A stretch of DNA of 64,000 nt. Source: an uncultured Myxococcales bacterium (lineage in GTDB: Bacteria; Myxococcota_A; UBA9042). Numbering within the stretch: the stretch's first letter is position 1; every line of letters begins with the position of its first letter. The position numbers and the translations under genes were made by a program. This document shows positions 8,083 through 34,276 of the stretch, piece by piece. Location: positions 27,586 to 91,585 of the forward strand of contig CAJBNH010000033.1 in assembly GCA_903955385.1 (NCBI GenBank), given 5' to 3'. The notes under the pieces were generated by a model. The model saw only the letters and a program-made list of their open reading frames with translations, was not told where the DNA came from and made no database searches.

Positions 8083-8248
8083 GATTCTCCGGGGAGCATT
8101 CGGTAGGGGGGAGGGGAATGCAGGACGACCCGAGAAGTGGGGGCCGTCGAGGTGAGAATTGGAGCACATCGGCGGTGGGTTTGTCGACGGTCCTGCGTGA
8201 GAGAGCGTGCAGAACCTGACGGCGGGGACGACCAAGCGGTCGTGGGCG

Positions 8249-10378
8249 CTACGGGCAGACCTGAAGGATCCGCAGGTCGTCGACCAGCACGCCCAGGGTG
8301 TCGTTGGACTGGTCATCGACCGCATCAAAATCCAACCGAATCCAGAGCTTGTCGCCCAAGTCGGCCGGCAGATCCAACACCAGCTCCAGCCAGTTGTCGC
8401 CGGTTGTCTTCACGCAGCTGCCGCCCTGCCCACAGTTGGTGCCTTGAGGACACTGCGCGGCCGGCAGCGACGACTTGGTCCACAGCACCTTGGCAGGCTT
8501 GCCGGTCGCCTCTGCCGAGATCGTGATCTTGTCGTAGTTCACGCACGCCTCGACCTTGGCCTGAATCTGCAGCCGAAGCTGGCGCTTGGTGCCGGGAGGC
8601 AGCGAGACCTCAGGCAGGGTGACGGTGCCCTTGTTGTTGTTGAACGAGTACTTCAGCGTGGCAGGGTCGCCGTAGTACAGGACACTGCCGGGCGTGAAAG
8701 CCCAGGGCGTCGCGTAGACCTGCCACCCCTTGCTCGGGCTGTTGCTGTTGCTGATCTTGGCGCCCGCGGGCAGTCCGCTGTCGAAACCCTCTTGCCAGAA
8801 CACCTTCTTGGGGTCGCAGCAGCTGGCGATCGCCGTGTGCGTGCACGCGCCCGTCCCCGGGGTGCACGCGTCGGTGGTGCAAGCGTTGCCGTCGTCGCAA
8901 AGCGCCGTGTTGGCGGGGAACGTGCAGTCCTTGGCCGCGTCGCAGGTATCGACGGTACAGGGATTGTTGTCGGTGCAAGTCTTGGCTGCGCCCGCGATGC
9001 ACTTGCCGTTCAGGCACTTGTCGCCCACGGTGCACACGCTGCCATCGGTGCAGTCGCCGCTGTTGGCCAGAAACACGCAACCTCCGGGTGCCTTGGGGTC
9101 GCACGCCTCGTCGGTGCAGGCGTTGCCGTCGTCGCACACCAAAGGCTTGGTGCCGGCGCACTTGCCTGCCTTGCACAAGTCCGCGTCGGTGCAGACGTTG
9201 CCGTCGTTGCACGGTGCCGCATTCTCGACGAACAGGCAGCCACCCTTCGGGTCACACTTGTTGTCGGTGCAGGGATTGCCGTCGTCGCAGCTGTTCGGCA
9301 GCGCCGTGTGCTGACAGCCAGCCTTGGGGTCGCAGGCATCGCTGGTGCACAAGTCCTGATCGTCACACGTGTCGGCCGTACCTTTGCACAAGCCGACGGC
9401 ACACAAGTCGCCCTTTGTGCATGGGTTGCTGTCGTCGCAGGCCTGCGTGTTGGGCTTCTGGCCGCAACCCTGACCCGGCACGCAGACCGTGTCGGTGCAG
9501 ATGTCGTTGTCCGAGCAGACGACGCCGACGTTGTAGCCACCGCCGTCCGCGCGGCACTCGAAATACCCGAGCGAGCTGCCGCATCCCCCCTTGGCGCAAA
9601 GGTCTTCCTGGCAGCGGTGGCTGGCGTCGCAGAACTTGCCCGGCAGGCAGTCGTCGGCCGTCTCGCAGTCGACGCACACGCCCGCCACGGTGTCGCAGAT
9701 CAGGTCGCATTCCTTGCTGGTCTTGCAGGGCTTTGCGCCGATGCAGCGGTGGTCCAGGCAGGCCTGTTGGTCACCGCAGTCGGCGGCCACCACGCAATCA
9801 GCGCACAGTCCTATCGGCTTGTCGCATACCTGGTTGTTGGCCTTGCACTCGACGTCGGACTTGCAGGTCTTCGACGCGGAGCACTTGCGTTCGAGACAGA
9901 GCAGGCCAGCGCCGCAGTCGGCCGACGTCAGGCACGGGACACACGCACGGGTCGCGAGGTCGCAAACGCCCGTCTTGCATGGGTTCTTGTCGTCGCAAGG
10001 AGCAACGGTTTGCGTGCAGCCGGGAATGGCCTCGTGGGTGCAGGCGCCCGTGGCACTGCACCCGTCGATGGTGCAGGCATCCTCGTCTGCGCACTCCGAC
10101 GCTGCGGTGCATCCCGCGGGGGTCGCATCGGGGTCGGTGACGGCGTCGGAGGAGGTCTCCGTCGCTGCGTCGGGGTCGGTCACGCCGTCGGTGGTGGCAT
10201 CGTCCGAAACCGTGGCGCCGTCTGGCAGCGACGTGTCGCTGAGCGAAACATCGCCAGTGTCTTCCGCGACATCCGCAGCGGTCATGCCGCCGAGCGGGGT
10301 CGTGACATTGGAGCAACCGGCGGTCAGGGCGACCAGCAGGACAACGGTCGCAAGGGCGCGAGGGCAGAAGGAGTGCAT
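8249..10378 (-). CDS. Large lipoprotein with Myxococcus-type cysteine-rich repeats (CxDGNxCTxDxCxxxxGC) and a C-terminal beta-sandwich-like domain
   Basis: Lipoprotein signal MHSFCPRALATVVLLVALTAGC. An Asp/Thr-rich linker follows. There are at least 10 tandem Cys-rich modules resembling TIGR02232. The last ~190 aa are cysteine-poor. The start chosen is the ATG at 10378, inside the longer ORF that begins at 10675. Confidence 0.8.
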   Translation of the reverse strand: MHSFCPRALATVVLLVALTAGCSNVTTPLGGMTAADVAEDTGDVSLSDTSLPDGATVSDDATTDGVTDPDAATETSSDAVTDPDATPAGCTAASECADEDACTIDGCSATGACTHEAIPGCTQTVAPCDDKNPCKTGVCDLATRACVPCLTSADCGAGLLCLERKCSASKTCKSDVECKANNQVCDKPIGLCADCVVAADCGDQQACLDHRCIGAKPCKTSKECDLICDTVAGVCVDCETADDCLPGKFCDASHRCQEDLCAKGGCGSSLGYFECRADGGGYNVGVVCSDNDICTDTVCVPGQGCGQKPNTQACDDSNPCTKGDLCAVGLCKGTADTCDDQDLCTSDACDPKAGCQHTALPNSCDDGNPCTDNKCDPKGGCLFVENAAPCNDGNVCTDADLCKAGKCAGTKPLVCDDGNACTDEACDPKAPGGCVFLANSGDCTDGSVCTVGDKCLNGKCIAGAAKTCTDNNPCTVDTCDAAKDCTFPANTALCDDGNACTTDACTPGTGACTHTAIASCCDPKKVFWQEGFDSGLPAGAKISNSNSPSKGWQVYATPWAFTPGSVLYYGDPATLKYSFNNNKGTVTLPEVSLPPGTKRQLRLQIQAKVEACVNYDKITISAEATGKPAKVLWTKSSLPAAQCPQGTNCGQGGSCVKTTGDNWLELVLDLPADLGDKLWIRLDFDAVDDQSNDTLGVLVDDLRILQVCP

Positions 10379-10560
10379 GCGGTGGCCTCTGCGAAAGGTG
10401 GGAGACAGCCTTGCATGATACGGGTCGTCGCAGGGGCGGACAAGGCAAGGTGCATGGACGGAATAAATCGGGTCAATTGGGTCCGGAATTTGGAATCGAC
10501 TTGACAGGCGTCGCGGCGTGGCGAGGATCCCCGCCGTAACTGAACGACGACAGCCGCGCG

Positions 10561-11478
10561 TTGCGGCTTCTCCGTGGGAGGGACCCGATGGTAGGCATTG
10601 GTACGCCTTGGCGCCGCCGTAGATTGGTTCTGATGTGGGCGGGGTTGCTGATGATGCCGGCCCTCGCGCAGGCACAGGTCTTTGAGAGCGGCGAGTCGCT
10701 GCTGATGGGCTATTCCGTCACCGGCGGGGCCATCTACGAGGCCGGGCGCGGCGAGCTCAGCGGTTGGCGCGACGGCGTCGATCCCACGCCGACCGCTTAC
10801 GGCTTCCGTTACTTCGAGCGCAACGGCTTGATCTCAGGCACGATCGGCGCCGTGGCCGTGGTTCTGGGCGGCGCGATGGCGGCATCGGGACCCAAGAGCG
10901 TCGAGACCTGGGAAGACTCGAACTACCGCTATACCAAAACAACCTACTACAGCGCTGCCGAACAGGCAGCGATCACCGGGTCTGCCGCACAGTCGGCGTC
11001 CGAGCTGATGGGCTCGCCCAACCAAAGCTTCGACCTGCAGATCTTCTCGCGCTCACTCGGTGGCACCACGGCCGGCTACAAGGCCAACCTCATGTTCGTG
11101 GGCATCCCGTTCGAGGGCGGCATGGTCGACGTCGGCATGGGGTTGGGCAAGGTCACGTCGGCGTTTCAGGACAAGGGCCAATATTTCGTCAGTCGCTACA
11201 CGTACTTCGGAATGCCCATGCGGCTCAACCTGGTGATGGGACCGGTCGTGACTTACCTGCACTTCGACTGGAACTGGCTCAGCCACGCCGAGCACAAGGC
11301 CCCGGTCATCTCGGGGGCATCCAAGAACACGAAAGAGGTCGAGTCCGACGCCTTCCCGTGGCGCCTGGGTGTGCAGGCCGCGCTGTTCGGCCGGCTCTAC
11401 GTCGACGGAGCCGCCACCACACCTTCGCTGACGTCGGGTGACTTCGGGTACTCCGGGTCGCTCGGGCTGCGCTTCTAG
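10561..11478 (+). CDS. Secreted outer-membrane beta-barrel-like protein (hypothetical)
   Basis: The signal peptide ends …MMPALAQAQ. The protein is Gly/Tyr-rich with alternating hydrophobic residues and ends in …GSLGLRF, an aromatic residue of the kind seen at OMP C-termini. An alternative start lies at 10588. Confidence 0.65.
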   Translation: MRLLRGRDPMVGIGTPWRRRRLVLMWAGLLMMPALAQAQVFESGESLLMGYSVTGGAIYEAGRGELSGWRDGVDPTPTAYGFRYFERNGLISGTIGAVAVVLGGAMAASGPKSVETWEDSNYRYTKTTYYSAAEQAAITGSAAQSASELMGSPNQSFDLQIFSRSLGGTTAGYKANLMFVGIPFEGGMVDVGMGLGKVTSAFQDKGQYFVSRYTYFGMPMRLNLVMGPVVTYLHFDWNWLSHAEHKAPVISGASKNTKEVESDAFPWRLGVQAALFGRLYVDGAATTPSLTSGDFGYSGSLGLRF

Positions 11479-11494
11479 GCGCAAGGAGGACGTC

Positions 11495-12229
11495 ATGCAT
11501 CAGTCCACTAAGCCACACTTTGCGGGTTACTTTCTGGCGGCGCTGCTATCGCTTGCTGCCTCTACCGCGCTGGCGGAAACGGTGGCCGGGCCCTACGGGA
11601 TGACCCGCAACGGTCTGGTAGGCGGCTTCTTCGGCCAGGGCGAGCGATGGGGACAGGGCGGGTCGCAGGTGATCCTGTTTGCTGAGGGCGGTCTGTTCAC
11701 GCACGCCTCGACGCTGGGCAACTTGGGTGGACTCTCAGGCGGCATCCAGATGGGGTGGGACGGCGTACCGGCCTCAGGCGACGACACGATCGGCCTGGGC
11801 AGCTTCCAGTTCGACATGTGGGCCGGTTTTCCCGTCTCGCTGTTCCGCATCGGCGACCTGTTTCAACTGACGTTCGAGCCCGGCATGGGGATGAGCTATC
11901 AGGCCTCGTACCTGAACATGAAGCTGCGTGGCGGGTTTGCGGTTGGCGAAGTGGAGGGTGACCTGACAGGAACCTGGTGGCCCGGCGCGACCAGCTATGC
12001 GACGGGCCCCGACGGCGTCGGCAACGATGCGACCAGCTTGAAGGGCACCCTTTACATCGGCGACGATCCAGCCTTCTTTGCATGGGGCGAGTACTACTCC
12101 AGCCGACGCGAGCAGGAGTCGTTCGACACCACGAAGTCGCAGGAATACGGTGGGTTGAACGTGTTTGGCACCACGACCCGGCAAGACTTTGAGAACCTGA
12201 TCCGCATCGGCTTGGGGGTCGCCTTCTGA
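11495..12229 (+). CDS. Secreted outer-membrane beta-barrel-like protein (hypothetical)
   Basis: A strong RBS (AAGGAGGA) sits 5 nt upstream of the ATG at 11495. The signal peptide ends …AASTALAETVA. The protein ends …RIGLGVAF, an OMP-like C-terminus. Confidence 0.7.
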   Translation: MHQSTKPHFAGYFLAALLSLAASTALAETVAGPYGMTRNGLVGGFFGQGERWGQGGSQVILFAEGGLFTHASTLGNLGGLSGGIQMGWDGVPASGDDTIGLGSFQFDMWAGFPVSLFRIGDLFQLTFEPGMGMSYQASYLNMKLRGGFAVGEVEGDLTGTWWPGATSYATGPDGVGNDATSLKGTLYIGDDPAFFAWGEYYSSRREQESFDTTKSQEYGGLNVFGTTTRQDFENLIRIGLGVAF

Positions 12230-12263
12230 CCCCCGCACCGTCGCCCCCAACTGAGAGATCGCC

Positions 12264-13277
12264 ATGCCGTACACACGCTTCGCCCTTCCGGTTCTCGCGT
12301 TGTTGGTCGGATGCCAGACCTCTCAGGTCAACGTGACACCGGTCGATCCCGACGTCACGGCCGACACGACGGAAGTGCAGACCGACACGCAGACGGAGCC
12401 GACGTGCAGTGGAACGGTGAGCGGCACCTTCCTCATCCGGCCCAGCGTGAAGGCGGGGCTGAAGAACCCTTGCACCATCAACGGTTCGCTGACGATCTCG
12501 CTGGACGCAGCGGCCGATGAGCTGGCGACGGTTCAGGGTCTGCAGGTCGTGACCGGGGATCTGGAACTCCAGAACGGCGCGACCGATCCGGGGCCGGTGC
12601 TGCCGCACCTGACGCAAGTCAACGGCTCGATCACGCTGCAGAACATCGGCGCGCCCCTGGTGTCCGGTTTCGACGCACTGCTACAGGCGGACGGCGGCGT
12701 GACGTTCATGAACTCCACGGGCATTCAGGAGATCCGCGGCTTTGCGAGCTTGACCGCTACCCAAGTGGTCGAGGTCAACAATCTGCCCAACCTCGAGTTG
12801 ATCGACGGGTTTTCCAGCCTGTCGTCGCTCGCGCACCTCAAGCTCAGCTATCTGTCCAAGCTAAAGACGGTCCTGGGCCTTGGCGCCAACGTCACGGGGC
12901 AGGTCGAGACCGTCTGGCTCAGCCAACTACAGCTGCTGCAGTCGTTTCCGACGATGGACAAGGTGACGGAAGTCGCCGCTCTGGAGACCACAGCCACGGG
13001 CTTCTTGTCGGTCAGTGCATGGCCGTCCCTGACCAAGGTGGAGACCCTGACCGTCACCGACAACGCAGCGGTGGCTTCTCTGCACTTCCCGGTGCTGACG
13101 CAGGTGGAGACCGGGCTGTTTGTCGGCAGCAACCCGTACCTGAAGAGCATGGCCGGACTGGACGCGGTCACGTCGTGCGGTCAAGTCCGGTTCTGCAACA
13201 ACCACAAGGACTTGACGGAGGCTGCCGTCCACGCTTGGATCGCTGTACACGGCGGTCAGGACATGAAGTGCAACTGA
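12264..13277 (+). CDS. Lipoprotein with leucine-rich, receptor-L-domain-like beta-helix repeats
   Basis: Lipobox LLVGC with an Asp/Thr-rich linker. Repeats of ~24 aa carry spaced L/V/I residues (…LQVVTGDLELQNG…LTQVNGSITLQNI…). Cysteines occur near both termini. Confidence 0.7.
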   Translation: MPYTRFALPVLALLVGCQTSQVNVTPVDPDVTADTTEVQTDTQTEPTCSGTVSGTFLIRPSVKAGLKNPCTINGSLTISLDAAADELATVQGLQVVTGDLELQNGATDPGPVLPHLTQVNGSITLQNIGAPLVSGFDALLQADGGVTFMNSTGIQEIRGFASLTATQVVEVNNLPNLELIDGFSSLSSLAHLKLSYLSKLKTVLGLGANVTGQVETVWLSQLQLLQSFPTMDKVTEVAALETTATGFLSVSAWPSLTKVETLTVTDNAAVASLHFPVLTQVETGLFVGSNPYLKSMAGLDAVTSCGQVRFCNNHKDLTEAAVHAWIAVHGGQDMKCN

Positions 13278-13302
13278 CGACGACCGTGGCTCGTCGCTCG
13301 CG

Positions 13303-14859
13303 CTAGAAGCCGCAGGCCAGCGACGCCCCGGCGCACTTGCCGGCCATGCAGATGCCCTTGCAAACCATGTCGGTCTTGCACTGGTCGTCGCAGGCGGCGT
13401 TGCAGCTGATGAAGGCGAACGCCTCTGTGGCTGCCTGCTTGCTGCCCAGGTCAAAGCACTGCAGGCCGCACGCGGGCTTGCCAGCGCACAGGTTCATGCA
13501 GCCCAGCACGGTCTTGCAGTCGCCCAAGCCCTTGGGGTCCAAGCACGCGATCGTCGTGTCGGTGCACTCCGTCGTGGTTTGTCCGAAACACTGCATCGCC
13601 GACCACGCCTGACCAGCAGCCTGCGGCGTCGCATCCTTCAAGCACGCAAGCCCGCAACTGTCGTTGCCTTGGCCGCAATTCGCCGCGCACGCCAGCGTCT
13701 GGCTGCAGGTCTTGGTGCCCTGGGGGTCCAGGCACTGGATGTACTTGTCCTGGCACTCGGGTGTCAGGGAACCGCCGTCGCTGGTGCAGTTGAACAACTC
13801 CAGCGCTTGGGCCGCCGCGGCGGGCTTGGACTGGTGCAGGCAACCGAACGCGCAGCCGGGCCCCGGGTCGGTGTCCCCGGCCGCCTTCTTGCACTCGTTG
13901 GCGCAAGTGATGGCATCCCAACAGGTCTTGCTGCCGGTCGGGTCGATGCAGCCCATGAAGGCCGTGGCGCACTCGGGCGTGGTCTCGGTCTGGCCCAAGC
14001 AGGGCAGCAAGGGAGTGAACTTCTGCTGAGCGGCGGGCGAGGCTTGGGACAAGCACTTGATCAAGCAGTCGCCGTCGCTGCGCTCAGGCGCGCAGGTCTG
14101 GTTGCAGTCGAACAGCTGCCAGCACTCCAGCGAGCCTGACTGGCCCTCCAGCAGGCACGCCATCACCTCCGCACCGCACGCTGCCATCGGATCTGCGGAC
14201 GTTGACTTGGCCACGCAGTCGCTGATCGCCTGCACACGGGTCTTCGCCTTGGCCGTCAGGCCGTTGTAGCAACTCGCCATGCACTGCAGCCCGTCGGCGT
14301 TGGCCATCGAGCAGCCGTCGAAGCAGGCCGAGGCGTCCTTGCACGCCACGGGGCCGGCCGTGCCGTCGTCGAGGCACGTGTACAGCTGCGACATGCACTT
14401 GGCCTCGATGCACTGGTCCACGCACTTCGGGTCTTGGCTGCCCTTGCACAGACCCGCCTGACACGTGCCCTGGACGCACATCAGCAGGGGAGCCGCCGCG
14501 ACGATGGCCGCCGAGCTTGCATCCGCAAGACAAGCCTTTTCGCAACCCGCCACACCGGAGGCACAGGCGAGGGTGATGCACTGCACGAGGTCCGGACAAT
14601 TCGCATACGTAGCGATGACTTCGGTGATGTCAGCGGTCGCGTCCTGTTCCACCGCGTCTTCTGCGACGTCCGCAACGGCATCGTCCTGTTGAATCGTGTC
14701 GTTGGTCTGGGTCGCGTCGCCCGCGATGTCGCCCACGGCGTCGGGGTCGGCGACGATCGTGTCGTCCAGCACCAAGCCAGGGGCCTCGGTCTCCGAGCTG
14801 CACGCCGCAACGGCCAAGGCGCCAAGGACAAGGCAACAGATTGCGGTACGCGAATGCAT
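13303..14859 (-). CDS. Lipoprotein made of six tandem ~70-aa modules with eight cysteines each (disulfide-rich repeat not assignable to a named family)
   Basis: Lipoprotein signal MHSRTAICCLVLGALAVAAC followed by an Asp-rich linker. Six modules follow the pattern C-x4-5-C-x3-C-…-C-x3-C-L-…-C-…-C-…-C-(L/I)-D-P. The start is the ATG at 14859. Confidence 0.75.
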   Translation of the reverse strand: MHSRTAICCLVLGALAVAACSSETEAPGLVLDDTIVADPDAVGDIAGDATQTNDTIQQDDAVADVAEDAVEQDATADITEVIATYANCPDLVQCITLACASGVAGCEKACLADASSAAIVAAAPLLMCVQGTCQAGLCKGSQDPKCVDQCIEAKCMSQLYTCLDDGTAGPVACKDASACFDGCSMANADGLQCMASCYNGLTAKAKTRVQAISDCVAKSTSADPMAACGAEVMACLLEGQSGSLECWQLFDCNQTCAPERSDGDCLIKCLSQASPAAQQKFTPLLPCLGQTETTPECATAFMGCIDPTGSKTCWDAITCANECKKAAGDTDPGPGCAFGCLHQSKPAAAAQALELFNCTSDGGSLTPECQDKYIQCLDPQGTKTCSQTLACAANCGQGNDSCGLACLKDATPQAAGQAWSAMQCFGQTTTECTDTTIACLDPKGLGDCKTVLGCMNLCAGKPACGLQCFDLGSKQAATEAFAFISCNAACDDQCKTDMVCKGICMAGKCAGASLACGF

Positions 14860-31365: not shown

Positions 31366-32052
31366 ATGCTCCCCCCGCTTGCCCCGCGTCGGTTGTTCGG
31401 CGTTCGCCGCATGGCAGCCGTCGCCCTCGCCACGGCCCTCGGCACCGCCTTCGTCGCCTTGCCCCAGACGGCCTGCGCGTTCACCGTGCTGCAGGTCGAC
31501 CTGTACGACCTCGTCCAGAGTGCGGATGTCGTCGCCTACGGAGTGGTCGAGCGCACGACCGTGATCGATCGCCGCAAGGAAGGTCGCAGCATCTGGACGG
31601 AATTCACGCTGCGGGTGACGGAGGTCTGGAAGGGTGACGCCAAAAAGGTCGGCCCCCGCTTCACTTGGCGTCACGTTGGCGGCACCGGACAGGACGGCAT
31701 CACCGTCGCCGTGCCAGGCATGCCCACCTTCGTTCAAGGCGAGGAAGTGGTTGTCATCCTTGAGAAGACCTCAGAAGGGCACGTGATTTCCGCCGGTCCC
31801 CAGGGCAAGTTCTTCGTTCGCACCGACAAGTTGGGGCGCAAGACCGTCACGCGCGATCTGCTGGACGTCCACTTGCTGCACCGCGACACCCAGACCGGCA
31901 AGGTCAGCGAAGCTCCCACCACGACGCAAGTCACGCGCTTCCTGAAGGACTTCCGCGCAGAGGTGCTGGGCCATGTCGCTGCTCAGGCCAAGGTCGCCGT
32001 CAAGCCCGCCGCCCCCGTCAAGGTTTCCCCCCCCGGCCCCATCGGGAAGTAG
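31366..32052 (+). CDS. Secreted hypothetical protein
   Basis: Signal peptide MLPPLAPRRLFGVRRMAAVALATALGTAFVALPQTACA. An AAGGAG RBS sits 8 nt upstream of the ATG at 31366. The longer ORF from 30385 lies antisense to hemH and was rejected. Confidence 0.65.
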   Translation: MLPPLAPRRLFGVRRMAAVALATALGTAFVALPQTACAFTVLQVDLYDLVQSADVVAYGVVERTTVIDRRKEGRSIWTEFTLRVTEVWKGDAKKVGPRFTWRHVGGTGQDGITVAVPGMPTFVQGEEVVVILEKTSEGHVISAGPQGKFFVRTDKLGRKTVTRDLLDVHLLHRDTQTGKVSEAPTTTQVTRFLKDFRAEVLGHVAAQAKVAVKPAAPVKVSPPGPIGK

Positions 32053-32095
32053 CCCACCCACCGCTTCGCAGCTTCCCGAGACAGGAGTCCTCCCC

Positions 32096-34276
32096 ATGCG
32101 GCTCACCGGCGCTCCCTCCTTCGCCCCTCTGGCGCGCGCCCTGTTGACCCTGGCCTTGTGTTGGCCGGCCCAGGCTCAGGCGTTCTCGGTCTCTGTGCCG
32201 ACGCCGACCACCAAGACCTTCGTCAAGTGGTACACCAACAAGGTGATGTACTACCTGCACCCCTTCGGCACGCCCGACATCGGCGCGGCCGCCTCTCTGG
32301 ACGAGCTGCGGCTGGGCTGGAAGGGTTGGATGGGCATCAACTGCACCGGATTGCAGTTCATCGAGGGCTACCACTGCAACACGGCGCAAGGGAAGTGCCT
32401 GTACGACAAGTCCGGCGGCGTGGCGGTCTCGTGCAGCAAGGATGCAGACTGCCCGTCAGCCTTGAACGTCAAGGTCGTCCCGATCGGCTATAACCCCAAC
32501 AACCGCAACGAGTTGGTCTTTGTCGAGAACGCCGACTGGCAGTTTGGCAAGTACGTACTGGGCGTCACTTCGCCAGTCTTCGGCAGCAACGGTGCGATCC
32601 TCGAGGCCGACATCGCCTTCAACGGCTACAGCCAGAAGTGGACGACCAAGTCGGGAGAGGCGGGGTCCGGCACGCAGCACCTGCTCAGCGTCGCCATCCA
32701 CGAACAGGGCCACTTCTTCGGCGCCCAGCACGTGCTCGGTGGCTACAATGCCAAGGATCCTCCGACGATGGCACCCACCGTGCAGCCGTTCGGCATGTCG
32801 GCGACGCTGAACACGGATGACCAGAAGGTCGCGTGCTTTCTGAACCCGAAGTCGGGGCCTTACACCTGCGGTACCGACGCGGACTGCCCCTACATCAACG
32901 AGCAGAACCAACAGTCGGGTGAGGAGTACTACTCCGCCAAGCTCCTCTGCAATTCCGGCTCATGCGCGTGGTCCGGCGCCGGCACGCCGGTGGGCGGCAC
33001 CACTGCACTGGGCGGCGTCTGCACCGCGTCCAAGGACTGCAAGACCGGTCTGTTCTGCCAACCGTTCGGGTCCCAGGCCTACTGCTCGCAGGAGTGTACG
33101 GTCACCGCCAAGAACTGCCCGACGGGCTACACGTGCTACGCCTACCAGAACGGCGGCGGCAAGGGCGCCTGCCTGCCCGGCCAAGGCGAGCCGACGCCCA
33201 GCAAGACGCCAGGCACCGCCTGCAGTTCCAGCGCTGAGTGCACCACCCTGATGTGTCTGGACAACGTGTGCCGCGTGAAGTGCACCACCGGCAATCCCAT
33301 CGAGTGCGCCAAGGGCACCGAGCAGTGCGCGCCCATTCCGTCAGCCGGTTACGGCGGCTGCCTGCCCGTAGACCAGCCCGCCCAGAAACTGCCGCTGGGG
33401 GCCAAGTGCTTCGACGCCACCGAGTGCGACTCCGGCGCATGCCTGAAGGCTGACCTGCAGGCCAACTACGGTCTGTGTCGACAGAAGTGCTCGGGCAAGG
33501 GGACGTGCCCCAGCGGATTCTCCTGCGTTCAGCAGGTCGAGGGCTTCATGGCCTGCCTGCCCGGCAACGACAAGGTCCCGGTGGGCAGCGCGTGCACCGG
33601 CACCGGCGACTGCGACACCAACCTGTGCATCGACGCCGGCAACGCGATGTTCTGTTCGAAGAACTGCGACTTGAATCAGGTCGGCGTCTGCCCCTGCGGC
33701 ATGGCCTGCACCAGCACCAGCATCGGCCCCATCTGCTACCCCGGCACCAAACAGGCGTGCGTGTCGATCGGCCAGTCTTGTACGGCAGACAGCGAGTGTT
33801 TCTCTGGGCTTTGCGCGGGGGGCCTCTGCGTCGCCAGCTGCGACGTTGGCACCGGACAGGGCGGCTGCCTGCAGGGTGAGGCGTGCCTGCGTGTCCAGAA
33901 CGCCAACAGTCAGGGGCGCTGCGAGAAGACCGGCGCGACCAATCTGGGCGACCTGTGCGCGCAGGACTCGGACTGCAAGTCGCTGTTGTGCGCCCCAGAG
34001 TTGGCCAGCCCGCTTGAGCTGCGCTGCCAGAAACCCTGCGATCCGTCTCAGGATTCCTGCGGACCCGGCTTGGCCTGTCGCGCGCTGGGCGTGGGGTTGG
34101 GAGCGTGCGTGCTCGTCGAGGACATCCCCAACGTGCCGGACGTGCCGGTAGTCGGTTCGCTGGTCCCGTCGAATTCGAGCGGCTGCGCAGCGGGCGGGCG
34201 CACGGCACCTGCGGGACTTGCGTTGCTGTTCGCGGCTCTTGCGCTGATGACGTGGCGGCGGCGGTCGCGCGTCTAG
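32096..34276 (+). CDS. Secreted metzincin-type zinc metalloprotease with about eight C-terminal Cys-rich modules and a MYXO-CTERM signal
   Basis: The signal peptide ends …CWPAQAQA. The motif HEQGHFFGAQH fits HExxHxxGxxH. Repeated modules carry 6 cysteines in ~45 aa. The tail …SGCAAGGRTAPAGLALLFAALALMTWRRRSRV matches MYXO-CTERM. The start is the ATG at 32096 with an AGGAG RBS. Confidence 0.82.
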   Translation: MRLTGAPSFAPLARALLTLALCWPAQAQAFSVSVPTPTTKTFVKWYTNKVMYYLHPFGTPDIGAAASLDELRLGWKGWMGINCTGLQFIEGYHCNTAQGKCLYDKSGGVAVSCSKDADCPSALNVKVVPIGYNPNNRNELVFVENADWQFGKYVLGVTSPVFGSNGAILEADIAFNGYSQKWTTKSGEAGSGTQHLLSVAIHEQGHFFGAQHVLGGYNAKDPPTMAPTVQPFGMSATLNTDDQKVACFLNPKSGPYTCGTDADCPYINEQNQQSGEEYYSAKLLCNSGSCAWSGAGTPVGGTTALGGVCTASKDCKTGLFCQPFGSQAYCSQECTVTAKNCPTGYTCYAYQNGGGKGACLPGQGEPTPSKTPGTACSSSAECTTLMCLDNVCRVKCTTGNPIECAKGTEQCAPIPSAGYGGCLPVDQPAQKLPLGAKCFDATECDSGACLKADLQANYGLCRQKCSGKGTCPSGFSCVQQVEGFMACLPGNDKVPVGSACTGTGDCDTNLCIDAGNAMFCSKNCDLNQVGVCPCGMACTSTSIGPICYPGTKQACVSIGQSCTADSECFSGLCAGGLCVASCDVGTGQGGCLQGEACLRVQNANSQGRCEKTGATNLGDLCAQDSDCKSLLCAPELASPLELRCQKPCDPSQDSCGPGLACRALGVGLGACVLVEDIPNVPDVPVVGSLVPSNSSGCAAGGRTAPAGLALLFAALALMTWRRRSRV

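What the first reader, a model, noticed from the sequence alone, without database searches (positions are those of the whole stretch)
8249..14859. Envelope island: two Cys-repeat lipoproteins flank two OMP-like barrels and an L-domain-like lipoprotein
Five consecutive genes all encode exported proteins. On the minus strand, a 709-aa lipoprotein and a 518-aa lipoprotein, both disulfide-rich, bracket three plus-strand genes. The three are two small Gly-rich proteins ending in Phe (OMP-like) and a lipoprotein with leucine-rich beta-helix repeats. The outer lipoproteins use repeat types similar to those in the myxobacterial TraA cell-surface receptor. The layout suggests a surface-recognition or adhesion module rather than metabolism. 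I could not assign it to any described system.
Basis: partly seen in the sequence, partly recalled or inferred. Interest (0 to 1): 0.65.

Follow-up and report, generated by a model that had tools for sequence, protein, structure and literature searches.

The report
Two outer-membrane barrels plus LRR lipoprotein
The five exported-protein genes are real, but only the three middle ones (two small outer-membrane barrel proteins and a leucine-rich-repeat lipoprotein) travel together in related uncultured myxobacteria, so they form an uncharacterised envelope operon and the two cysteine-rich lipoproteins are just neighbours.

Summary
Five consecutive genes at 8249-14859 encode exported proteins of the stated sizes, and independent public gene calls agree.

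The five-gene "island" does not hold. Only the plus-strand trio B-C-D (10588-13277) is conserved.
- In 14 distinct Myxococcota MAG loci, C follows B in 12 of 13 evaluable loci and D follows C in 10 of 13.
- Order and strand are always the same, the gaps are tiny, and the flanking genes are unrelated housekeeping genes.
- A relative with 90%-identical B shares DNA homology only over window 10408-13282.
- The flanking lipoproteins A and E recur only in a 96%-identical sister genome. An E homologue elsewhere sits in an unrelated context.

Best reading: an outer-membrane complex that anchors or displays D. The closest analogue is the Myxococcus GltA/GltB/GltK-CglB platform, but membership is not met. 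It is a new variant of a known kind, of moderate interest.

The parts
10408..10587 (+). Conserved upstream region of the B-C-D unit. It holds a palindrome-like block (about 10410-10452), a perfect -35-like TTGACA (10501-10506) followed 16 nt later by GAGGAT, a small 5'-leader hairpin GCCGC-GCGTT-GCGGC (10553-10567) and a Shine-Dalgarno GGGAGGGA (10576-10583).
   Evidence: This region is retained in L007, where gene A is absent and the flanks are unrelated (blastn, alignment, sequence). Promoter function is inferred and was not tested.
10588..11478 (+). Gene B. A 296-aa outer-membrane beta-barrel protein with a Sec signal peptide and an invariant C-terminal Phe. Its most conserved part is a helix / beta-hairpin / helix insert (residues about 77-141, motifs ERNGxISGT...SGPKSVE...TKTTYYSxAEK).
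11495..12229 (+). Gene C. A 244-aa all-beta outer-membrane barrel with a signal peptide and an invariant C-terminal Phe beta-signal (IRIGLGVAF). OpcA-like fold.
12264..13277 (+). Gene D. A 337-aa lipoprotein with a lipobox, a short conserved Pro/acidic tether (orthologue consensus C-[LF]-LPE-x-DTPP-x-DP), a low-complexity linker, and an L-domain/LRR beta-solenoid with four invariant capping Cys.
   Evidence: Pfam Recep_L_domain 3.7e-10, 40.4 bits against a cutoff of 21.8. 7 of 9 orthologues hit the same family. The family profile hits LRR proteins and the ErbB3 L domain in the PDB. Alignment. It lies directly downstream of C in 10 of 13 loci.
13278..13296 (.). Short GC-rich hairpin (CGACGA-CCGTGGC-TCGTCG) in the 25-nt gap between the convergent stop codons of D and E. 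Possible bidirectional terminator.
   Evidence: Read directly from the sequence. The terminator scan did not call it because there is no T tract. Weak evidence.
8249..10378 (-). Gene A, a neighbour and not part of the conserved unit. A 709-aa lipoprotein with an acidic linker, a Cys-rich stalk (about 20-aa C-x-DC units, then Dicty_CTDC repeats with a 75-78-nt DNA period) and a C-terminal domain of about 190 aa with a weak MAM-like match.
   Evidence: Dicty_CTDC 1e-32 in 6 stretches; InhA-like MAM E=0.009, below cutoff. DNA repeats. Its non-repeat parts are found only in L006.
13303..14859 (-). Gene E, a neighbour and not part of the conserved unit. A 518-aa lipoprotein with an acidic linker and about six copies of an unmodelled 8-Cys repeat of about 62-72 aa.
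   Evidence: Cys spacing pattern. No Pfam, NCBIfam or PDB sequence match. 101 relatives among 1.84 billion representatives. The five homologues read are all lipoproteins. Homologue P0083 sits in an unrelated context.

Best explanation
The functional unit is the three-gene operon B-C-D (window about 10408-13277), not the five genes. It encodes two different small outer-membrane beta-barrel proteins, B and C, and an outer-membrane lipoprotein, D. D's folded part is a disulfide-capped L-domain/LRR solenoid, a classic ligand-binding scaffold.

Proposed mechanism:
1. B and C are inserted into the outer membrane by BAM through their C-terminal Phe beta-signals.
2. There they form a hetero-complex.
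3. D is lipidated and sent to the outer membrane.
4. D is held by the barrels through its conserved N-terminal tether, and is probably exposed at the cell surface.
5. There its fast-evolving LRR face binds an external ligand (adhesion or recognition).

Shown here: the gene set, the operon-like arrangement and its conservation, the export signals, the barrel folds and the L-domain/LRR identity. Inferred: the physical complex, surface exposure and ligand binding.

Genes A and E are independent Cys-rich lipoproteins that merely lie beside the operon in this species.
For: - Synteny: B-C adjacency in 12 of 13 evaluable distinct loci and B-C-D in 10 of 13, always in the same order and strand.
- Spacing: the intergenic gaps in the window are 16 and 34 nt. 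In L001 the genes are 9 nt apart or overlap by 11 nt.
- Variable flanks: RlmL/PlsX/APP1, purEK, a HEAT-repeat protein, or ADH/LdcA here.
- Unit boundary: blastn against L007 aligns only window 10408-13282, including a conserved upstream region with TTGACA and a Shine-Dalgarno.
- D: lipobox, L-domain and LRR hits. It has an unusually conserved tether right after the lipidated Cys and four invariant Cys.
- Rate contrast: against L007, D is 56% identical while B is 90% and C is 85%. This is the pattern expected of an exposed binding protein on conserved anchors.
- Precedents: GltA/GltB barrels are mutually stabilising and, with the lipoprotein GltK, hold the lipoprotein adhesin CglB at the surface (PMC4488436, PMC11761067). 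A short motif next to the lipidated Cys directs surface export in Bacteroidetes (PMC5080379).
- Constraint: all five genes are under purifying selection.
Against: - No direct evidence of a B-C-D complex, of D's orientation (surface or periplasm) or of any ligand.
- The model of C is only moderately confident (pLDDT 64).
- D is missing from the more distant B-C loci (L003, L005), and B stands alone in L019. So the barrels can function without D.
- The window's own D has a degenerate tether (C-QTSQVNVTPVDP).
- Co-transcription is inferred from spacing only.
- The sample is small (14 loci) and consists entirely of MAGs.
Confidence: 0.55

Rival explanations
1. All five genes (A, B, C, D, E) form one surface-recognition or adhesion island in which the Cys-rich lipoproteins work with the barrels and the LRR lipoprotein.
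For: - All five are exported, and both flanks are Cys-rich lipoproteins.
- Only one other strongly Cys-rich ORF occurs in the remaining roughly 40 genes of the window.
- Some other B loci also have non-orthologous Cys-rich proteins within a few kb: L003, L012, L013, L014.
- A is divergent from B across a shared 209-nt intergenic region.
Against: - A and E, including A's non-repeat domains, are found only in the 96%-identical genome L006.
- In L007 (B 90% identical) homology ends at the edges of B-C-D. A is replaced by non-coding DNA and a HEAT-repeat gene, and there is no E in the 300 nt after D.
- An E homologue lies in an unrelated locus.
- Enrichment of Cys-rich neighbours is not significant (5/46 against 3/71, p=0.26).
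- A and E are on the opposite strand and are unrelated to each other.
Confidence: 0.07
2. B and C are independent small porins or channels (OpcA/KdgM/Tsx-like) for a small solute. D is a periplasm-facing outer-membrane lipoprotein. The genes are co-transcribed for a shared physiological role such as uptake or envelope maintenance, without any display of D at the surface.
For: - B-C pairs, and B alone, exist without D.
- By default, outer-membrane lipoproteins face the periplasm. CglC was shown to be periplasmic by protease assay (PMC4488436).
Against: - Two non-homologous barrels kept strictly adjacent suggests a heteromer rather than redundant channels.
- B's most conserved element is a helix-hairpin-helix insert, not pore-lining strands.
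- LRR and L-domain folds are binding modules typically used on surfaces.
- D's rapid divergence relative to B and C fits exposure.
- No transporter, binding-protein or catabolic genes are linked to the trio.
Confidence: 0.22
3. B and C are a divergent copy of the myxobacterial Glt/Nfs outer-membrane platform (GltB/GltA-like), with D replacing GltK/CglB. The trio would then be part of a gliding-type or spore-coat-type envelope-spanning machine.
For: - The sizes and gene order resemble gltB (275 aa) and gltA (256 aa) with an adjacent lipoprotein gene (PMC4488436).
- The modelled GltB has a helix (121-134) and a beta-hairpin that contact GltA (PMC11761067). B has a conserved helix-hairpin-helix insert.
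- The phylum is the same.
Against: - GltA and GltB are paralogues with a recognisable OmpA-like barrel (PMC4488436). B and C are not detectably related, and essentially no member hits OmpA or OMP_b-brl models.
- No GltC-like TPR gene or other glt or agl gene is adjacent in any locus.
- The B search returned no protein from cultured gliding myxobacteria among its 48 clusters.
- Direct comparison with GltA/B sequences could not be done here.
Confidence: 0.08
4. C or B is an outer-membrane enzyme (an omptin-type protease, or a PagP/PagL/OMPLA-type lipid-modifying enzyme) and D is its substrate-recruiting partner.
Against: - No Omptin, PagP, PagL or OMPLA Pfam hit for any family member.
- The invariant residues of C are Gly, Leu, Tyr, Trp, Pro and Phe plus a single Glu, with no conserved Asp/His or Ser/His set.
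- B's invariant polar residues (R78, T119, E125, N229) do not form a known catalytic signature.
Confidence: 0.04

Closest known systems
Myxococcus xanthus gliding outer-membrane platform GltA/GltB (+GltH) with lipoproteins GltK/CglC and CglB (paralogous Nfs system)
   Same: Same phylum. Two adjacent genes encode barrels of about 250-300 aa next to a lipoprotein gene. The Glt barrels are mutually stabilising and, with a lipoprotein, hold a lipoprotein adhesin at the surface (PMC4488436, PMC11761067). This is the mechanism proposed here for B, C and D.
   Different: GltA and GltB are paralogues with an OmpA-like barrel, whereas B and C are unrelated to each other and match no OmpA or OMP model. 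There is no GltC TPR partner and no other glt genes nearby. D is an L-domain/LRR protein, not a GltK-like protein or a VWA/beta-propeller adhesin. B and C occur only in uncultured lineages.
Neisseria OpcA (10-stranded outer-membrane adhesin) and OmpT-type barrels
   Different: Sequence identity is 8-12%, there is no Pfam OpcA or Omptin match, and no catalytic residues are conserved. OpcA acts alone, without a partner barrel or lipoprotein.
Receptor L domain (PF01030) and bacterial surface LRR proteins (internalin B, BspA/LrrA-type)
   Same: D passes the Pfam gathering threshold for Recep_L_domain, and its family profile matches LRR proteins and the ErbB3 L domain. It has a right-handed solenoid with Cys caps and a ligand-binding role.
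   Different: D is a lipid-anchored bacterial protein with its own conserved tether, and it is encoded with two barrels. No ligand is known. Similarity to any characterised bacterial LRR adhesin is only at repeat level.
TraA (myxobacterial outer-membrane exchange receptor)
   Same: A is a Cys-rich, secreted, probably stalk-like protein. PF00526 repeats are said to resemble the TraA repeat TIGR04201 (PMC3325183). A has a sub-threshold TIGR04201 hit.
   Different: No PA14 domain, no MYXO-CTERM tag and no traB-like OmpA-domain neighbour. A is lipid-anchored at its N terminus. E has a different repeat altogether.
Barrel-assisted lipoprotein exposure (RcsF-OmpA/C/F, LptDE, Slam, the Bacteroidetes LES pathway)
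   Same: The concept that a lipoprotein reaches or crosses the outer membrane in association with a beta-barrel, or through a short motif adjacent to the lipidated Cys (PMC5080379). D has a conserved motif in that position.
   Different: D's motif (LPE-x-DTPP-x-DP) is not the K-(D/E)2 LES. B and C are not Slam/DUF560, LptD or general porins. The comparison is an analogy only.

Membership tests
Pfam PF01030 Receptor L domain (gene D) | Score above the curated gathering threshold | tested here: met
   40.4 bits against a cutoff of 21.8, E=3.7e-10. 7 of 9 orthologues also match.
Pfam PF01030 Receptor L domain (gene D) | Right-handed beta-helix of leucine-rich turns capped by disulfides | tested here: inconclusive
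   The family profile hits LRR solenoids and the ErbB3 L domain, and four Cys flanking the repeats are invariant.
Pfam PF00526 Dicty_CTDC repeat (gene A) | Repeated Cys-rich units of about 24 aa scoring above threshold | tested here: met
   112 bits against a cutoff of 27, in 6 stretches. The DNA repeat period is 75-78 nt.
TraA-type outer-membrane exchange receptor (genes A, E) | N-terminal PA14-like variable domain | tested here: not met
   No PA14 hit at E<=1 on A or E.
TraA-type outer-membrane exchange receptor (genes A, E) | TIGR04201 Cys-rich repeats above threshold | tested here: not met
   A scores 14.7 bits against a cutoff of 25. E has no hit.
TraA-type outer-membrane exchange receptor (genes A, E) | MYXO-CTERM sorting tag (TIGR03901) and an adjacent traB (OmpA-domain) gene | tested here: not met
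   No NCBIfam hit. A ends ...LRILQVCP and E ends ...SLACGF. The neighbouring genes are an ADH, gene B, gene D and LdcA.
Glt/Nfs outer-membrane platform (GltB/GltA-like pair) | The two barrels are paralogues of each other | tested here: not met
   BLASTP finds no significant match. hhalign of the two family profiles gives probability 2%.
Glt/Nfs outer-membrane platform (GltB/GltA-like pair) | OmpA-like barrel domain recognisable by sequence | tested here: not met
   None of the 26 C-family members hits one. One of 25 B-family members hits OMP_b-brl at E=0.064.
Glt/Nfs outer-membrane platform (GltB/GltA-like pair) | Co-encoded periplasmic TPR protein (GltC/NfsC) | tested here: not met
   No TPR gene is adjacent in any of the loci with gene calls.
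Glt/Nfs outer-membrane platform (GltB/GltA-like pair) | Direct sequence or structure homology to GltA/GltB/NfsA/NfsB | not testable with these tools
   The M. xanthus sequences were not obtainable here. Indirectly, no cultured-myxobacterium protein is among the 48 B relatives.
BAM-dependent outer-membrane beta-barrel proteins (genes B, C) | Sec signal peptide plus a C-terminal beta-signal ending in an aromatic residue | tested here: met
   Signal peptides ...PALAQA/QV in B and ...STALA/ET in C. The terminal Phe is invariant in both family alignments.
BAM-dependent outer-membrane beta-barrel proteins (genes B, C) | Closed antiparallel transmembrane barrel fold | tested here: met
Omptin protease (gene C) | Conserved Asp/Asp and Asp/His catalytic pairs, and a Pfam Omptin match | tested here: not met
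   No Pfam hit. The invariant columns of the C alignment contain no Asp or His.

The most novel reading that the evidence does not exclude
B-C-D is a previously unrecognised, self-contained surface-display system of uncultured Myxococcota. A heterodimer of two unrelated small barrels would export and hold a lipoprotein at the cell surface. One of the barrels carries a conserved hydrophobic helix / hairpin / helix insert. The lipoprotein would be recognised through a dedicated tether motif next to its lipidated Cys. Its rapidly diversifying LRR/L-domain face would then act as a cell-cell, prey or kin recognition determinant. This would add a new route for lipoprotein surface exposure alongside Slam, LptDE and the Bacteroidetes LES pathway.
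Probability: 0.2. Interest if true: 0.65.

Novelty: new variant of a known kind. Interest (0 to 1): 0.38.

Why it matters
How Gram-negative bacteria place lipoproteins on their surface is still known for only a few systems. In myxobacteria, surface receptors and adhesins such as TraA and CglB drive social behaviour, motility and predation.

A compact, conserved operon of two unmodelled barrel families plus a fast-evolving LRR lipoprotein is a clean, testable candidate for another barrel-assisted display or adhesion module, in lineages known only from metagenomes.

The practical gains are modest:
- It corrects the boundary of the unit from five genes to three.
- It defines three unannotated protein families (B, C and the E-type 8-Cys lipoprotein) that could be modelled.
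- It gives specific motifs to mutate: B's insert, D's tether and the terminal Phe residues.

No phenotype, ligand or complex has been shown, the organisms are uncultured, and paired barrels with a lipoprotein are an established theme. A specialist would find this interesting but not startling.

Tried and rejected
- **Five-gene synteny.** Searched A, B, C, D and E against 20 fetched loci by tblastn, hmmsearch and phmmer. A and E were rejected as members of the unit.
- **Homology within the pairs.** B against C and A against E, by BLASTP and hhalign. No relationship found.
- **Family libraries.** Pfam and NCBIfam scans on the window proteins, and Pfam on 25 B-family and 26 C-family members.
- **PDB sequence searches.** Nothing for A, B or E. 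D gives only generic LRR matches.
- **Structure job for C with locus-derived homologues.** Redone with database homologues, giving a shallower and more distant alignment and pLDDT 64.
- **AFDB fold search.** The library was unavailable, so no link to annotated myxobacterial models such as GltA/B could be made.
- **Wider locus scans.** The genome-contig scan with the wide alignment failed for lack of a conserved stretch and was redone with closer sequences, giving 9 loci. The metagenome scan returned only a duplicate of L012.
- **Enrichment of Cys-rich neighbours near B-C-D.** Not significant.
- **Mobile-element or RNA explanation.** No bounding inverted repeats and no Rfam family. The promoter and terminator scans gave nothing above background.
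- **Diversifying selection.** dN/dS against L006 is 0.08-0.12 for all five genes, with no gene-wide signal.
- **GltA/GltB sequences from a paper supplement.** No supplementary files were held for the one paper checked, PMC11761067.

Full report
**1. What is in the sequence**

The window is about 66% GC and full of spurious long ORFs, so I picked coding frames by third-position GC.

| Gene | Coordinates | Length | Export signal | Other features |
|---|---|---|---|---|
| A | 8249-10378 (-) | 709 aa | lipobox LTAGC | 78 Cys |
| B | 10588-11478 (+) | 296 aa | Sec signal peptide | 0 Cys, 41 Gly, ends LGLRF |
| C | 11495-12229 (+) | 244 aa | Sec signal peptide | 0 Cys, 44 Gly, ends LGVAF |
| D | 12264-13277 (+) | 337 aa | lipobox LLVGC | |
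| E | 13303-14859 (-) | 518 aa | lipobox AVAAC | 59 Cys |

Gene calls on a public contig that carries an identical D protein give the same five products. Against a 95.6%-identical genome (L006), all five have dN/dS of 0.08-0.12, the same range as the housekeeping neighbours.

**2. What each protein is**

- **A** has six Dicty_CTDC (PF00526) repeats (E=1e-32). It also has a sub-threshold MAM-like C-terminal domain and a sub-threshold TIGR04201 hit. Its repeats are visible as 75-78-nt DNA repeats.
- **D** passes the Pfam threshold for the Receptor L domain (40.4 bits against 21.8), as do 7 of 9 orthologues. A profile of the D family matches LRR proteins and the ErbB3 L domain in the PDB.
- **E** has no match in Pfam, NCBIfam or the PDB.
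  - Its Cys spacing shows about six copies of an 8-Cys unit of 62-72 residues.
  - An exhaustive phmmer search found 101 relatives among 1.84 billion representatives.
  - The five relatives I read are all lipoproteins with the same layout.
- **B and C** match nothing in Pfam or NCBIfam. That also holds for 25 members of the B family and 26 of the C family scanned against Pfam. They are not related to each other (BLASTP; hhalign probability 2%). A and E are also unrelated to each other.

**3. Folds of B and C**

- **B:** the AF2 model from a 25-sequence alignment is confident (pLDDT 86.6, pTM 0.76). It is a beta-barrel with two long helices.
  - One helix is strongly hydrophobic (residues 81-100). 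The other spans 123-141. They flank a polar hairpin (102-120).
  - This insert is the most conserved part of the family (motifs ERNGxISGT...SGPKSVE...TKTTYYSxAEK).
  - All 50 Foldseek matches listed are outer-membrane barrels or constructs derived from them, although weak.
- **C:** the model is less confident (pLDDT 64, pTM 0.60).
- **Both families:** each keeps a signal peptide and an invariant C-terminal Phe preceded by alternating hydrophobic residues. This is the BAM beta-signal.

**4. Synteny, the decisive test**

B is rare, with only 48 clusters at 90% identity among 5.8 billion. All are from metagenomes or Myxococcota MAGs. I collected 14 distinct B loci and searched them with profiles of B, C and D.

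- C lies immediately downstream of B in 12 of 13 evaluable loci.
- D lies immediately downstream of C in 10 of 13.
- Order and strand are always the same. The gaps are 9-34 nt, or the genes overlap.
- The flanking genes differ by lineage:
  - RlmL ... PlsX-APP1 in L008, L011 and L017
  - purE-purK in L001
  - a HEAT-repeat gene in L007
  - an alcohol dehydrogenase and an LD-carboxypeptidase around the whole five-gene region here

A and E, including A's non-repeat N- and C-terminal parts, are found only in L006, the same species.

The sharpest evidence comes from L007. Its B is 90% identical, yet it aligns to the window only over 10408-13282 (77.7% nt identity over 2951 nt). That stretch is the B-C-D genes plus 180 nt upstream, and both flanks are unrelated. 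An E homologue (P0083) lies between transhydrogenase and biotin-synthesis genes.

Cys-rich proteins do occur near some other B loci. They are not orthologous to A or E and are not significantly enriched (5/46 near against 3/71 far, p=0.26). The window itself has a third Cys-rich ORF 18 kb away.

So the conserved unit is B-C-D, and A and E are neighbours.

**5. Further features of the unit**

- **Upstream region.** The 180 nt upstream of B are conserved in L007 even though A is absent there. They contain a perfect TTGACA (10501-10506), a small leader hairpin and a strong Shine-Dalgarno. This fits an autonomous promoter, which is an inference.
- **Tether of D.** D orthologues share an unusually conserved segment directly after the lipidated Cys, C-[LF]-LPE-x-DTPP-x-DP. 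The window copy is degenerate here (C-QTSQVNVTPVDP). Four Cys bracketing the solenoid are invariant.
- **Rate of divergence.** Between the window and L007, B is 90% identical, C is 85% and D only 56%. D's C-terminal cap is conserved (87-90%) and the rest is 35-70%.
- **Looser association of D.** More distant B subfamilies (Kofleriaceae-type) have B-C without D, or B alone.

**6. How it most likely works**

*Shown:* an operon-like trio of two BAM-type outer-membrane barrels and a lipoprotein with an L-domain/LRR binding fold.

*Inferred:* B and C form a heteromeric outer-membrane platform that anchors D through its conserved tether, and probably exposes it. D's variable solenoid would bind an external ligand.

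Three precedents support this reading:
- In M. xanthus, GltA and GltB are adjacent-gene barrels that stabilise each other. With the lipoprotein GltK they hold the lipoprotein adhesin CglB at the surface (PMC4488436, PMC11761067).
- In Bacteroidetes, a short motif next to the lipidated Cys directs surface export (PMC5080379).
- LRR and L-domain folds are generic binding modules.

I give about 0.85 to 'B-C-D is the unit, B and C are outer-membrane barrels, D is an LRR lipoprotein, and A and E are bystanders'. I give about 0.35-0.4 to the display or adhesion mechanism. The overall figure is 0.55.

**7. Rivals**

| Reading | Main objection | Confidence |
|---|---|---|
| Five-gene island | Contradicted by synteny | 0.07 |
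| Independent small channels with a periplasmic lipoprotein | Viable, but weaker given the obligate pairing of unrelated barrels and D's fast divergence | 0.22 |
| Divergent Glt/Nfs platform | Fails the paralogy, OmpA-like-domain and GltC tests. Direct comparison was not possible. | 0.08 |
| Outer-membrane enzyme | No catalytic residues conserved | 0.04 |

**8. Comparison with the known, and novelty**

- **Works like:** barrel-plus-lipoprotein outer-membrane platforms, with Glt the closest.
- **Member of:** D is a Pfam Receptor-L-domain protein and A is a Dicty_CTDC-repeat protein. B, C and E belong to no described family.
- **TraA:** not a TraA system, because there is no PA14 domain, no MYXO-CTERM tag and no supra-threshold TIGR04201 hit (PMC3325183).

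I rate it a new variant of a known kind. Interest is 0.38. It is a tidy, testable, uncharacterised envelope operon in uncultured myxobacteria, with no demonstrated function and a familiar overall theme.

Noticed in passing
window 10408-10452 (and L007 about 9778-9825): A palindrome-like block (GCCTTGCATGAT...GGCGGACAAGGCAAGGTG, with CCTTGC and GCAAGG arms) upstream of B is conserved in L007, where gene A is absent. It therefore belongs to the B-C-D unit. In the window it overlaps the only sigma-70-like promoter match, which points towards A. It may be a regulator binding site.
   Followed up: partly
window 31946-34276 (+): A third Cys-rich ORF of 776 aa with 63 Cys, with only a sub-threshold Matrixin (Peptidase_M10) hit. 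It shows that Cys-rich secreted proteins are a recurrent feature of this genome.
   Followed up: partly
window 13303-14859 (-) and proteins P0082-P0181: E defines an unmodelled family of about 100 clusters at 50% identity. The five members read are lipoproteins with an acidic low-complexity linker followed by repeats of an 8-Cys, Ala-rich unit of about 65 aa. There is no Pfam, NCBIfam or PDB relative.
   Followed up: partly
L007 and L001/L009 (records CAYURO010000037.1, CAZPHC010000012.1): Two public MAG records titled 'uncultured Enterobacteriaceae bacterium' carry high-GC DNA with the Myxococcota-specific B-C-D operon. The taxonomic label is almost certainly wrong.
   Followed up: no
window 12264-13277 against L007 11652-12710: D is 56% identical between two genomes whose B and C are 90% and 85% identical. 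Only D's last 50 or so residues (the C-terminal Cys cap) stay at 87-90%. This points to accelerated divergence or recombinational replacement of the solenoid.
   Followed up: partly
L005 (B-C only), L019 (B alone), L003 (B-C only): The more distant (about 30-40% identity) B subfamily, including a Kofleriaceae MAG, lacks D. In L005 an unrelated 338-aa lipoprotein is divergent from B. In L003 a sigma-54 activator lies just downstream on the opposite strand.
   Followed up: partly
L008, L011, L017: In one clade the trio always sits between an RlmL-type rRNA methyltransferase gene and plsX plus an APP1-like phosphatidate phosphatase gene. This is probably vertical synteny, but the lipid-metabolism neighbours are a possible functional hint.
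   Followed up: no
window 8207-10504 (+), 9088-10140 (+), 13307-14029 (+): Long antisense ORFs with high GC3 overlap genes A and E. These are typical high-GC artefacts and should not be annotated as genes.
   Followed up: yes
window 16-19 kb and 43-48 kb: The surrounding genes are ordinary chromosomal housekeeping genes: an ABC exporter, agmatine deiminase with N-carbamoylputrescine amidase, NadA, PutA, cytochrome bd, dihydroorotate dehydrogenase and NAD synthase. There are no mobile-element genes near the region.
   Followed up: partly
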